The notes beneath the pieces were generated by a model. That model saw nothing but the letters and a program-made list of their open reading frames with translations. It ran no database searches and was not told where the DNA came from. From Escherichia coli (GTDB taxonomy: Bacteria > Pseudomonadota > Gammaproteobacteria > Enterobacterales > Enterobacteriaceae): a DNA stretch of 64,000 nt. The stretch lies in the NCBI RefSeq assembly GCF_003018255.1, contig NZ_CP027440.1, one strand, 5' to 3'. Both the position numbers and the translations under genes were made by a program. Shown here one piece after another: positions 2,363-3,000 of the stretch (positions are counted from its first letter, which is position 1; each line of letters opens with the position of its first letter).

Positions 2363-2400
2363 AGCGATTCTCCATGAGGAAAATAAAAAATGCTGGCTGC
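2363..2400 (-). promoter_or_regulatory. Candidate FourU-type RNA thermometer in the chuA 5' leader, occluding the Shine-Dalgarno
   Basis: On the mRNA strand the sequence is UUUUCC-UCAU-GGAGAA immediately 5' of the AUG; UUUUCC can pair with the GGAGAA Shine-Dalgarno with one G-U wobble. A FourU thermometer has been described for shuA/chuA leaders. Confidence 0.4.
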
Positions 2401-2651
2401 CTGGGTTAATACCGGGGTGGCTGGCGAAAAATAAATTTATTTAAAATTCAGAGCGATAATATTCGCCGGGTGAGTTTACAGGCGTTTATATCCCATGAAA
2501 TTGCCTGGTATCTCGGCAAATACGCAAAAGCACGCCCTCTTTGTCAGGCAAACCGATATGCCCCATCAGGAGTGAAGAGCGCTGTGCGTTACCCCTTGTA
2601 AATGATATGGCTTTGTTATCCATATGGCCGTATTTTGTTAAATGCAAACGT

Positions 2652-2670
2652 GATAATGAGAATTATTATC
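2652..2670. promoter_or_regulatory. Fur box (iron-responsive operator) in the chuA promoter region
   Basis: GATAATGAGAATTATTATC compared with the Fur consensus GATAATGATAATCATTATC (about 17 of 19 matching); about 290 bp upstream of the chuA start, consistent with a long leader. Confidence 0.6.
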
Positions 2671-3000
2671 GATCAATTTTTTATGATCAAGCTTTTTTTT
2701 AACCGCCATTAACACAATAAACAGGGGGTTATGAAACTTATCCTGCGCCCTGGAAACCACTTTGCTTTTATGGTTATTCCCCCATGACCTCATCACTAAA
2801 CTTTGTCGTTAACAGTGATAATTTTCTCTTCTCTTTGCTCTGCAAGCCGCGATATCTCTGGGTTCTCAGCTTTTTCCCGCGCTGAAATTTAGTCGGTAAC
2901 AAGAACGTTAGCTGACGAAGCATCTTGATAAAAATCAAAAATAAATACGCTTGTAACGCCGTGCGTATTGAATCGACGGTTGTATTTCATATATAACTCA

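What the first reader, a model, noticed from the sequence alone, without database searches (positions are those of the whole stretch)
2363..2700. Long chuA leader with a Fur box about 290 bp upstream and a candidate FourU thermometer over the Shine-Dalgarno
The nearest strong Fur box (2652-2670) is far from the chuA ATG, implying a 5' UTR of roughly 250-300 nt. Immediately before the start codon the mRNA reads UUUUCC-UCAU-GGAGAA, which can fold to sequester the Shine-Dalgarno. This matches the described temperature control of shuA/chuA translation layered on iron control.
Basis: partly seen in the sequence, partly recalled or inferred. Interest (0 to 1): 0.4.

Follow-up and report, generated by a model that had tools for sequence, protein, structure and literature searches.

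The report
Known chuA iron-and-temperature control leader

Summary
Observation and interpretation are both confirmed, and both are already published. The ORF at 380-2362 (-) is chuA. Rfam's curated family RF02597 (shuA/chuA thermoregulator) matches 2360-2391 (-) at 32/32 bases, above its gathering score. The Fur box at 2652-2670 matches the 19-mer consensus with 2-3 mismatches (0 expected by chance) and overlaps a -10 hexamer. The published dRNA-seq start in EHEC gives a 291-nt UTR, which puts +1 at about 2653, inside the Fur box. Mutagenesis at U-19 (U2381 here) was published for shuA and chuA. The hairpin segment is identical in 2202 of 2235 chuA-bearing complete E. coli genomes. Folding alone does not show melting at 37 C, so the thermometer claim rests on the literature.

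By-product, not previously noted in the papers I could read: the leader sits exactly where Citrobacter, Pseudocitrobacter and Leclercia carry a small hemP gene. Promoter/Fur box, spacer and overall geometry are homologous; the interior is not demonstrably so. The invariant 3' block carries an HPRE-like (HmuP-responsive) motif pair. E. coli keeps a HemP paralogue, YdiE, elsewhere.

One scan was mis-specified and is void.

The parts
380..2362 (-). chuA coding sequence (660 aa TonB-dependent haem/haemoglobin receptor); AUG at 2362-2360
   Evidence: ORF list. RefSeq annotation of 96-99.9% identical loci. Homologues named ChuA/ShuA at 95% identity in E. albertii.
2367..2384 (-). FourU RNA thermometer hairpin: 5' arm AUUUUCC 2384-2378, loop UCAU 2377-2374, 3' arm GGAGAAU 2373-2367. 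U2381.G2370 is the wobble pair that was mutated in the literature (position -19 / U273).
   Evidence: Rfam RF02597 match at 2360-2391, 60.1 bits against a gathering score of 58, 32/32 identical. MFE at 20-45 C. Kept in the whole-leader MFE and centroid. The 61-mer around it is identical in 2202 of 2235 E. coli genomes. Mutagenesis in PMC3660397 and PMC9002310.
2370..2373 (-). Shine-Dalgarno core GGAG, 7 nt before the AUG, fully inside the 3' arm of the hairpin
   Evidence: Read directly from the sequence. Predicted unpaired probability <=0.01 at 25-37 C in the isolated 32-mer.
2363..2653 (-). chuA 5' untranslated leader, 291 nt. The +1 at about 2653 (+/- 1-2 nt) is inferred by transferring the published EHEC Sakai start; it was not mapped in this strain.
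   Evidence: dRNA-seq in PMC9002310. No indels relative to O157:H7 in this interval. Consistent with a -10 hexamer ending at 2662.
2652..2670 (.). Fur box overlapping the -10 hexamer and the inferred +1 of the chuA promoter
   Evidence: 2-3 mismatches to the 19-mer consensus, 0 expected by chance. 100% conserved in five E. coli lineages. Aligns with the hemP-promoter Fur box of other genera.
2662..2690 (-). Sigma-70-like promoter: -35 TTGATC 2690-2685, 17-nt spacer, -10 AATAAT 2667-2662
   Evidence: Consensus scan, 9/12 matches. The scan alone is not significant (3 sites found, 2.5 expected); support comes from the position relative to the published +1 and from conservation.
2392..2425 (-). 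HPRE-like motif pair GCCAGCC-N19-CAGCCAGC, inside the 78-nt block (2363-2440) that is invariant within E. coli. The published CyaR pairing site (about 15 nt upstream of the FourU) lies in or next to it; that placement is inferred.
   Evidence: Single match in the 64 kb window, 0 expected. Present in 12 chuA/hemR loci and absent from 27 unrelated loci. Conserved across genera. Resembles the C. violaceum chuR HPRE quoted in PMC9131926.
2437..2477 (-). Region +177..+217: published strongly inhibitory segment and proposed Rho-loading (rut) site. The Rho-dependent 3' end at +271 maps to 2383.
   Evidence: Coordinates transferred from PMC9002310. This is the most divergent part of the leader within E. 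coli, 61% identity to the B2-type allele.
2486..2623 (-). 45-codon ORF (MDNKAISF...; ATG 2623-2621, TAA 2488-2486) occupying the position of hemP in related genera; proposed decayed hemP relic, not a recognisable HemP protein
   Evidence: Collinear alignment with hemP loci. The hemP-CDS DNA profile's best hit in the window is 2625-2570, E = 0.13. Negative results: no Pfam hit, tblastn and HemP HMM at background level.

Best explanation
This is the published regulatory leader of the chuA/shuA haem-receptor gene. With iron, Fur binds the box at 2652-2670, which covers the -10 hexamer and the start site, and blocks transcription. Without iron, a 291-nt leader is transcribed. At its 3' end a 7-pair hairpin (2367-2384), in which four consecutive U pair with AGAA of GGAGAA, hides the Shine-Dalgarno sequence at about 25 C. 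At 37 C it opens enough for ribosomes to initiate, so ChuA is made only at low iron and host temperature. What is shown here: the sequence features, their exact identity to the curated family, and their conservation. What is taken from the literature for identical or near-identical sequence: Fur dependence, the start site, thermoregulation, the mutational proof, and the further inputs (CyaR, RyhB/Esr41 at the RBS, Rho termination at +271). What is inferred: that this particular strain behaves the same way.
For: Rfam RF02597 hit above the gathering score, 32/32 identical. Fur box with 2-3 mismatches and 0 expected by chance, overlapping a -10-like hexamer. No indels relative to O157:H7, so the dRNA-seq 291-nt UTR transfers directly, and -19 equals U2381, which equals the published U273. 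Hairpin present in the isolated and the whole-leader folds. In-silico mutants behave as published: U-19C stabilises the stem (-8.7 vs -6.1 kcal/mol at 37 C) and U-19A abolishes it. Hairpin 61-mer identical in 2202/2235 genomes and promoter 61-mer >=99% in 1705/2232. Promoter/Fur box and the last 78 nt are 100% identical even in the lineage whose mid-leader is only 61-79% identical. Experiments in PMC3660397 and PMC9002310.
Against: Nearest-neighbour folding does not predict opening at 37 C: the SD is >99% paired from 20 to 42 C and dG only goes from -8.4 to -6.1 kcal/mol. The hairpin is only moderately unusual among gene starts in the window. A competing register, using the upstream U-run 2385-2390, is slightly more stable at 25 C in a 35-nt fragment (-9.45 vs -8.39 kcal/mol) and is at least as well kept across genera. 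A similar FourU-like hairpin before Yersinia hemR1 gave no thermoregulation (PMC6158557), so the motif alone is not sufficient. The start site was not mapped in this strain, and the base at 2653 is a U, which is uncommon for a +1, so allow +/- 1-2 nt.
Confidence: 0.93

Rival explanations
1. The hairpin is an ordinary SD-occluding structure that lowers translation at all temperatures, and temperature sensing is not its function.
For: Folding predicts a closed SD at 25, 37 and 42 C. It ranks 12th of 40 by stability among proxy gene starts. The Yersinia hemR1 FourU-like hairpin is not thermoregulatory. SD-sequestering stems are predicted before the orthologous receptor in every genus examined.
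Against: Published 25 vs 37 C reporter data with stabilising and destabilising point mutations on this exact hairpin, in both S. dysenteriae shuA and UPEC chuA, and U273A in EHEC.
Confidence: 0.04
2. The SD is sequestered, wholly or partly, by an alternative 12-pair register in which AGC-AUUUUUUAU (2394-2383) pairs with AUGGAGAAU-GCU (2375-2364). The published 7-pair FourU stem would then be only one of two competing closed states.
For: This register is the MFE of the 35-nt fragment at 25 C (-9.45 vs -8.39 kcal/mol) and is the predicted fold in Pseudocitrobacter, C. koseri and Leclercia. Across 7 sequences it keeps 96.3% of cells paired, with one compensatory C-G to U-A pair, against 91.7% and none for the published stem.
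Against: With n = 7 neither register exceeds its shuffles (71/500). In the whole-leader fold at 37 C the published stem appears in both the MFE and the centroid. The published -19 mutations lie in the loop of the alternative register yet change expression in both directions, which supports the published stem specifically.
Confidence: 0.2
3. The 'leader' is not simply untranslated. Its 45-codon ORF (2623-2486) is a translated upstream ORF or a still-functional divergent HemP-like peptide whose translation sets Rho access and chuA expression.
For: An ATG-GAT-AAC start is conserved at the hemP position in all Escherichia alleles. The ORF stop (+166..+168) lies just upstream of the published inhibitory/rut segment +177..+217. 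The B2-type allele keeps a 53-codon ORF.
Against: No Pfam hit even at E <= 10 for either allele. HemP HMM scores are at background. The alleles differ by frameshifts (1-nt indels). Only a weak SD-like sequence precedes the ATG. No translation data are available.
Confidence: 0.1

Closest known systems
shuA/chuA 5'UTR thermoregulator (Rfam RF02597; Kouse et al. 2013, PLoS One 8:e63781)
   Same: Identical at all 32 modelled positions, with the same gene, the same distance to the AUG and the same U.G wobble at -19. This is that element.
   Different: Nothing in the element itself. The mid-leader allele of this window is the EHEC/Shigella-like type rather than the UPEC (B2) type.
chuA leader regulatory map of EHEC (Sy & Tree 2022, Front Microbiol 13:821196)
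   Same: 291-nt UTR, Fur-controlled promoter, FourU, CyaR site about 15 nt upstream of it, inhibitory +177..+217 segment and Rho-dependent 3' end at +271. All transfer to the window without indels.
   Different: The window is 96.5% identical to O157:H7 over the intergenic region, with scattered substitutions in the mid-leader. None of these inputs was tested here.
Salmonella agsA FourU thermometer (Waldminghaus et al. 2007; Rfam FourU, RF01795 from memory)
   Same: Four consecutive U pairing with the SD in a short hairpin just upstream of the start codon; zipper-type melting.
   Different: No sequence relationship. The Rfam scan reported only RF02597 here. The chuA element is a single 7-pair hairpin at the end of a 291-nt leader.
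Yersinia enterocolitica hemP1-hemR1 spacer with a FourU-like hairpin (Jaworska et al. 2018, PMC6158557)
   Same: Orthologous receptor family (HemR1 is 69% identical to ShuA), a U-tract pairing with the RBS, and a Fur-repressed promoter far upstream.
   Different: In Yersinia the upstream space holds an intact hemP gene plus a 172-nt spacer. The hairpin has an unpaired G-G, and HemR1 was not thermoregulated.
shuT/chuT Fur box and RNA thermometer (Wei, Kouse & Murphy 2017, PMC5458455)
   Same: The divergent neighbour in the same locus uses the same two-layer logic. Its Fur box at +1..+19 of a 42-nt UTR maps exactly onto window 3004-3022, with the chuT ATG at 3046.
   Different: Short 42-nt UTR, and the Fur box lies downstream of the start site rather than over the -10.
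HmuP-responsive elements (HPRE) in 5'UTRs of haem-receptor genes (Amarelle et al. 2019, Biometals 32:273, read only as quoted in PMC9131926)
   Same: GCCAGCC / CAGCCAGC-type motifs about 26-30 nt upstream of the receptor start codon, downstream of a hemP/hmuP gene.
   Different: I could not read the defining paper, so the consensus and whether chuA/shuA was listed are unknown. E. coli has no hemP in cis. No functional test exists for E. coli.

Membership tests
shuA/chuA thermoregulator (Rfam RF02597) | Covariance-model score at or above the curated gathering threshold (58 bits) | tested here: met
   60.1 bits, E = 9.5e-09, model positions 1-32 of 32, 32/32 identical.
shuA/chuA thermoregulator (Rfam RF02597) | Located immediately 5' of the chuA/shuA start codon | tested here: met
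   The match ends on the AUG of the 660-aa ChuA ORF.
FourU RNA thermometers (functional class) | Four consecutive uridines base-paired with the Shine-Dalgarno region in a short hairpin | tested here: met
   U2383-U2380 pair with A2368, A2369, G2370 and A2371. C2379 and C2378 pair with G2372 and G2373. This is the MFE in the isolated and the whole-leader folds. Only two of the four U pair with the GGAG core; the other two pair with the following AA.
FourU RNA thermometers (functional class) | Translation rises between about 25 C and 37 C, and point mutations that stabilise or destabilise the stem shift this | not testable with these tools
   Shown experimentally for the identical hairpin in PMC3660397 and PMC9002310. 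Folding gives dG of -8.4, -6.1 and -5.1 kcal/mol at 25, 37 and 42 C but no predicted opening.
Fur-repressed promoter | 19-bp site close to GATAATGATAATCATTATC | tested here: met
   2 mismatches (+ strand) or 3 mismatches (- strand) at 2652-2670; 0.00 expected in shuffles.
Fur-repressed promoter | Site overlaps core promoter elements or the start site | tested here: met
   -10-like AATAAT at 2667-2662 lies inside the box, and the transferred +1 at about 2653 lies at its edge. The +1 is inferred, not mapped in this strain.
Fur-repressed promoter | Iron- and Fur-dependent transcription | not testable with these tools
   Reported for chuA/shuA (cited), and chuASTUVWXY are Fur-regulated in pathogenic strains (PMC10164565).
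HemP/HmuP protein family (Pfam PF10636), for the leader ORF | Significant match to the hemP profile | tested here: not met
   No Pfam match even at E <= 10 for the window ORF or the B2-type ORF. tblastn with four HemP proteins gave no significant hit in any Escherichia leader. The local HemP HMM gave E = 3.6-8.7, within background. The leader ORF must not be filed as a HemP protein.
hemP-hemR operon architecture (positional homology of the leader) | Homologous Fur-box promoter upstream and homologous spacer downstream, at the same distance from the receptor ATG | tested here: met
   AAAAAAAGCTTGAT plus the Fur box, and TTCGCCAGCCACCC.GGT...CCCAGGCAGCCAGC, align across 5 genera. GATAAT-to-ATG distance is 306-310 nt in all 9 sequences.
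hemP-hemR operon architecture (positional homology of the leader) | Detectable sequence homology of the interior to the hemP coding sequence | tested here: inconclusive
   The hemP-CDS DNA profile's top hit in each Escherichia sequence is collinear, but E = 0.014-1.5. The global-alignment permutation gave z = 0.01-3.45, with signal only in the 5' half. An earlier version of this test (second half) was invalid because of free end gaps.
HmuP-responsive element (HPRE) | Conserved GCCAGCC-type motifs in the 5'UTR of a haem TBDR gene, near the start codon | tested here: inconclusive
   The motif pair is unique in the window at 2392-2425 and conserved in orthologous loci. It resembles the one example sequence quoted in PMC9131926.
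RfaH-dependent (ops/JUMPstart) leader | ops element GGCGGTAGCGTG in the transcribed leader | tested here: not met
   No match with up to 3 mismatches anywhere in 2363-2653. Nagy et al. 2001 on RfaH and chuA was not available to read.

The most novel reading that the evidence does not exclude
The unusually long chuA/shuA 5'UTR is what remains of a hemP-hemR operon front end. Its Fur-box promoter would be the ancestral hemP promoter, its variable middle (about 2441-2623) a decayed hemP gene, and its invariant last 78 nt the old hemP-hemR spacer, which still carries an HPRE-like element (2392-2425) next to the FourU. Because E. coli retains a Fur-regulated HemP paralogue of unknown function (YdiE) at the aroH locus, where Citrobacter and Leclercia have a complete hemPRST operon, that element may still be served in trans, or may be the unidentified repressive element that CyaR overcomes. 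The papers I could read say the shu locus has no hemP homologue (PMC6158557) and call ydiE a gene of unknown function (PMC10164565). I could not check Wyckoff 1998, Nagy 2001 or Amarelle 2019. The probability given is for the evolutionary claim; I would put the trans-acting YdiE idea at no more than about 0.2.
Probability: 0.55. Interest if true: 0.4.

Novelty: already known. Interest (0 to 1): 0.15.

Why it matters
The finding itself adds nothing new. It is a correct re-identification of a textbook example of two-signal (iron and temperature) control of a virulence-associated haem receptor, curated in Rfam and dissected in several papers. Its value is as a positive control for the scan. The by-product could matter modestly. 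It would explain why this UTR is about ten times longer than typical E. coli UTRs, why its middle is the most variable part of the locus while both ends are frozen, and why Rho terminates inside it, as expected for untranslated ex-coding RNA. It would also give a concrete, cheap experiment for two open points: the function of YdiE, and the 'additional repressive element' that Sy & Tree inferred next to the CyaR site.

Tried and rejected
1) Genome-contig scan: I wrote 5 N instead of 4 between GGAGAAT and ATG, so the pattern cannot match the window itself. The 27 hits are chance matches in unrelated taxa. Those loci served only as an accidental negative control for the HPRE motif.

2) The first permutation test used free end gaps and was uninformative. 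It was redone.

4) Whole-leader structure: z = 0.09, so there is no evidence of unusual global structure.

5) HemP at the protein level in the leader: Pfam, tblastn and a local HMM were all negative. I had noticed by eye a 'KEG...LR' resemblance in the B2 allele, but no test supports it.

6) blastn of a Pseudocitrobacter-type hemP CDS against 5426 E. coli genomes found no match.

7) The small ORF in the promoter spacer (2774-2938, -) is rejected as a gene. Its substitutions between lineages are mostly non-synonymous and its 3' end is frameshifted in O157:H7 and strain 131 (my reading of the alignment).

8) RfaH ops element: none in the leader.

9) Literature: two searches with 'hemP' were swamped by hemp the plant and by the surnames Chua and Shua. 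Amarelle 2019 and Nagy 2001 are not held.

10) I did not map the CyaR pairing site base by base, because I had no verified CyaR sequence.
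Full report
WHAT IS THERE. Read on the minus strand, the window carries a 660-aa ORF at 380..2362. In 2236 of 5426 complete E. coli genomes it lies in a 90-100% identical region annotated as the TonB-dependent haem/haemoglobin receptor ChuA/ShuA, divergent from shuT/chuT. The chuT start codon maps to window 3046 (+), so the intergenic region is 2363-3045.
- the 19-bp Fur box GATAATAATTCTCATTATC at 2670..2652;
- UUUUCC (2383-2378), UCAU (2377-2374) and GGAGAA (2373-2368);
- then CGCU and AUG (2362-2360).

IS IT MORE THAN CHANCE. The Fur consensus with up to 3 mismatches occurs at only two places in 64 kb, 2652-2670 and 3004-3022, against 0.00 expected in shuffles. A scan of all 4227 Rfam families over 2250-3150 returns one match above threshold. 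It is RF02597, 'shuA/chuA 5' UTR thermoregulator', at 2360..2391 (-), with 60.1 bits against a gathering score of 58, E = 9.5e-09 and 32 of 32 positions identical to the consensus. The stem is A2384-U2367, U2383-A2368, U2382-A2369, U2381.G2370, U2380-A2371, C2379-G2372 and C2378-G2373.

As a bare hairpin it is not extraordinary. Among 40 crude proxy gene starts in the window it is 12th by stability and 3rd by SD occlusion (the proxy set is rough and some starts are surely wrong). The 309-nt leader folds no better than its shuffles (-71.4 vs -71.8 +/- 4.8 kcal/mol, z = 0.09), although the hairpin is kept in both the MFE and the centroid.

WHAT THE LITERATURE ALREADY SHOWS.
- Kouse et al. 2013 (PMC3660397) showed that ShuA and ChuA are translated better at 37 C than at 25 C. 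They showed that the 5'UTR suffices, and that U-19C (stabilising) and C-17A or U-19A (destabilising) mutations shift the response as expected. RT-PCR bounded the shuA UTR at 278-342 nt.
- Sy & Tree 2022 (PMC9002310) mapped the EHEC Sakai start by dRNA-seq, giving a 291-nt UTR. They confirmed the thermometer with U273A. They added CyaR activation through a site about 15 nt upstream of the hairpin, a strongly inhibitory segment at +177..+217, and Rho-dependent termination at +271. They summarise RyhB and Esr41 repression at the RBS.

The window has no indel relative to O157:H7 between the Fur box and the ATG, so these coordinates transfer directly:
- +1 is about 2653;
- +273, which is position -19, is U2381, the wobble U;
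- +271 is 2383;
- +177..+217 is 2477..2437.

The -10-like hexamer AATAAT (2667-2662), with TTGATC 17 nt upstream, sits inside the Fur box, and +1 is at the box's edge. This is the classical promoter-occlusion geometry. The base at 2653 is a U, and Kouse et al. used 293 nt for UPEC, so I allow +/- 1-2 nt.

CONSERVATION. A 61-mer centred on the hairpin is identical in 2202 of 2235 chuA-bearing genomes. The one divergent example inspected (strain HS-02, with a truncated receptor gene) differs upstream of the hairpin, not in it. The promoter/Fur 61-mer is >=99% identical in 1705 of 2232 genomes.

A segment-by-segment comparison is informative. Against the B2-type (UPEC-like) allele:
- the promoter/Fur box (2652-2699) and the last 78 nt of the leader (2363-2440) are 100% identical;
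- the flanking coding sequences are 97.5-98.3% identical;
- the leader between them is only 61-79% identical.

Earlier authors noted this mosaic (83.4% overall).

FOLDING AT DIFFERENT TEMPERATURES. The 32-mer hairpin has dG of -8.39, -6.1 and -5.1 kcal/mol at 25, 37 and 42 C, and the SD stays >99% paired throughout. The prediction therefore neither supports nor refutes thermosensing. It only shows a marginally stable stem whose stability falls by about a quarter over the relevant range. In-silico U-19C raises stability (-8.7 at 37 C) and U-19A removes the stem, in line with the published phenotypes.

The same calculation exposes a competing register in which the upstream U-run (2385-2390) pairs with the SD. 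It is the MFE of a 35-nt fragment at 25 C (-9.45 kcal/mol). Across seven sequences from five genera this alternative keeps 96.3% of cells paired, with one compensatory pair. The published stem keeps 91.7%, with none. With n = 7 neither exceeds its shuffles. The published -19 mutations lie in the loop of the alternative register, so the experiments support the published stem specifically.

VERDICT ON THE FINDING. The element is already known: it is curated in Rfam, and its mechanism has been tested by mutagenesis in three backgrounds. Interest is low.

WHAT TURNED UP BEYOND THE FINDING. To see how far the element extends, I searched with the ChuA protein and fetched the DNA around eight relatives.
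- E. albertii (95% identity) has the E. coli arrangement and an identical hairpin, scoring 60.1 bits with RF02597.
- In Citrobacter koseri, C. youngae, C. freundii, Leclercia barmai and two metagenomic relatives (84-88% identity), the receptor is preceded by a 59-78-aa hemP gene (PF10636) that ends about 75 nt before the receptor ATG, as in the Yersinia hemPRSTUV operon.
- One Pseudocitrobacter genome has that hemP frameshifted (two pieces in different frames, E about 1e-12 to 1e-17). A close relative has it intact.

Aligning 360 nt upstream of the receptor ATG shows the following:
- The E. coli chuA promoter and Fur box align with the hemP promoter and Fur box (AAAAAAAGCTTGAT is identical in Pseudocitrobacter).
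- The window's ATGGATAAC (2623-2615) aligns with hemP's M-D-N codons.
- The hemP stop region aligns with TAAATAAAT, exactly where the E. coli-invariant 3' block begins.
- The spacer TTCGCCAGCCACCC.GGT...CCCAGGCAGCCAGC is conserved in all genera.
- The distance from the Fur-box GATAAT to the receptor ATG is 306-310 nt in all nine sequences, with or without an intact hemP.

HOW FAR THAT GOES. The flanks and the geometry are convincingly homologous. The interior is not.
- A DNA profile built only from hemP coding sequences puts its best hit in each Escherichia sequence at the collinear place and strand, but with E = 0.014 to 1.5 (0.13 for the window).
- A fixed-location global-alignment permutation gives z between 0.01 and 3.45, with signal only in the 5' half. 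My first version of this test, was invalid.
- At the protein level there is nothing: no Pfam match even at E <= 10, no tblastn hit, and HemP-HMM scores at background.
- No E. coli genome matches hemP DNA.

Loss of similarity is what neutral decay over the Escherichia-Citrobacter distance would give. But it does not explain why two E. coli alleles differ by up to 39% in a locus that is otherwise about 98% identical. That points to allele replacement by recombination between the conserved flanks, or to unusually fast change. I therefore rate 'the leader is a hemP relic' as the most parsimonious reading, at about 0.55. It is not shown.

Jaworska et al. 2018 state that the S. dysenteriae locus has no hemP homologue. 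They also report a FourU-like hairpin in the Yersinia hemP1-hemR1 spacer that does not thermoregulate.

HPRE AND YdiE. The conserved spacer contains GCCAGCC-N19-CAGCCAGC at 2392-2425 (-). This pair is unique in the window (0 expected). It is present in 12 chuA/hemR loci and absent from 27 unrelated loci. [quoted passage not shown] 2019. I could not obtain that paper, so membership is untested.

E. coli does encode a HemP-family protein, YdiE. The sequence I recalled from memory was verified by exact look-up: the sources name it 'hemin uptake protein HemP' / YDIE_ECOLI. It is 51% identical to C. youngae HemP (E = 3e-20) and lies between a 348-aa DAHP synthase gene (PF00793; aroH from memory) and selO. 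In C. youngae, C. freundii and Leclercia a complete hemP-hemR-hemS-hemT cluster follows the same kind of gene. ydiE is in the core Fur regulon and is described as having unknown function (PMC10164565).

Whether YdiE acts on the chuA leader is pure hypothesis. So is the idea that the HPRE-like block is the 'additional repressive element' that Sy & Tree inferred near the CyaR site. Both are easily testable.

ERRORS AND LIMITS. The distribution of the element outside the eight loci I fetched is therefore unknown. All functional statements come from papers on identical or near-identical sequences, not from this strain. The +1, Rho, CyaR and inhibitory-segment coordinates are transferred, not measured.

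Noticed in passing
window 3004-3045 (+), chuT ATG at 3046: A second strong Fur box (GATAATCATGATCATTCTC, 3 mismatches) lies exactly at +1..+19 of the published 42-nt shuT/chuT 5'UTR, which also carries an RNA thermometer (Wei et al. 2017, PMC5458455). Already known.
   Followed up: yes
window 2441-2651 (-) compared with L003/L004: The middle of the chuA leader is only 61-79% identical between this allele and the B2/UPEC-type allele, while the promoter/Fur box, the last 78 nt and both flanking genes are 97.5-100% identical. This is far more divergence than the rest of the locus shows. It suggests allele replacement by recombination between the conserved flanks, or very fast evolution. The most divergent part coincides with the published inhibitory/rut segment.
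   Followed up: partly
window 2363-2700 (-) compared with L036-L042: The chuA leader occupies the exact position of hemP plus the hemP-hemR spacer of Citrobacter, Pseudocitrobacter and Leclercia. Promoter/Fur box and spacer are homologous, and the Fur-box-to-ATG distance is 306-310 nt in 9 sequences. Interior homology is marginal at the DNA level and absent at the protein level.
   Followed up: yes
window 2392-2425 (-): The HPRE-like motif pair GCCAGCC-N19-CAGCCAGC is unique in the window and conserved upstream of the receptor gene across genera. It resembles the HmuP-responsive element quoted for Chromobacterium chuR. In E. albertii the second motif reads TAGCCAGC, and in strain HS-02 the first motif is disrupted.
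   Followed up: partly
L043/L044 (E. coli aroH-ydiE-selO) compared with L038-L040: E. coli YdiE is a HemP-family protein in the core Fur regulon with unknown function. It sits after the DAHP synthase gene, where C. youngae, C. freundii and Leclercia have a complete hemP-hemR-hemS-hemT cluster. ydiE therefore looks like the only survivor of a second haem-uptake operon.
   Followed up: partly
window 2364-2394 (-): An alternative SD-sequestering register uses the upstream U-run (2385-2390). It is slightly more stable than the published FourU stem at 25 C in a 35-nt fragment and is better kept across genera, with one compensatory pair at alignment columns 44/66. The sample is too small for significance.
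   Followed up: partly
window 2700-3003, ORF 2774-2938 (-): About 350 bp lie between the two divergent start sites with no described function. 2800-3003 is 97-100% identical across lineages, while 2700-2799 drops to 81-82% against the B2 type. The 54-codon ORF there shows mostly non-synonymous changes and lineage-specific frameshifts at its 3' end (my reading of the alignment), so it is probably not a gene.
   Followed up: partly
L006 (E. coli WP4-S17-ESBL-03): In this strain the match to the window ends inside the chuA leader, at about window 2627. An IS26 transposase gene follows and then a truncated rlmJ, so chuA-chuS appear to have been deleted by IS26 activity.
   Followed up: no
L036 240-840 (Pseudocitrobacter faecalis): Several copies of a repeat of about 125 bp (…CCCTCACCCTAACCCTCTCCCTCAAGGGAGAGGGG…TGTGCACGGTGTTGAG…) fill the space between an upstream TonB-dependent receptor gene and the hemP promoter. 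They give spurious sub-threshold miRNA-family hits in Rfam.
   Followed up: no
window 52946-54796: A 483-bp tandem repeat, 3.8 copies at 96% identity, carries four rdlD antitoxin RNA genes (Rfam RF01813, 80-90 bits) at 53186, 53669, 54152 and 54635 (+). This is an LDR-type ldr/rdl type I toxin-antitoxin array, a known kind of element.
   Followed up: yes
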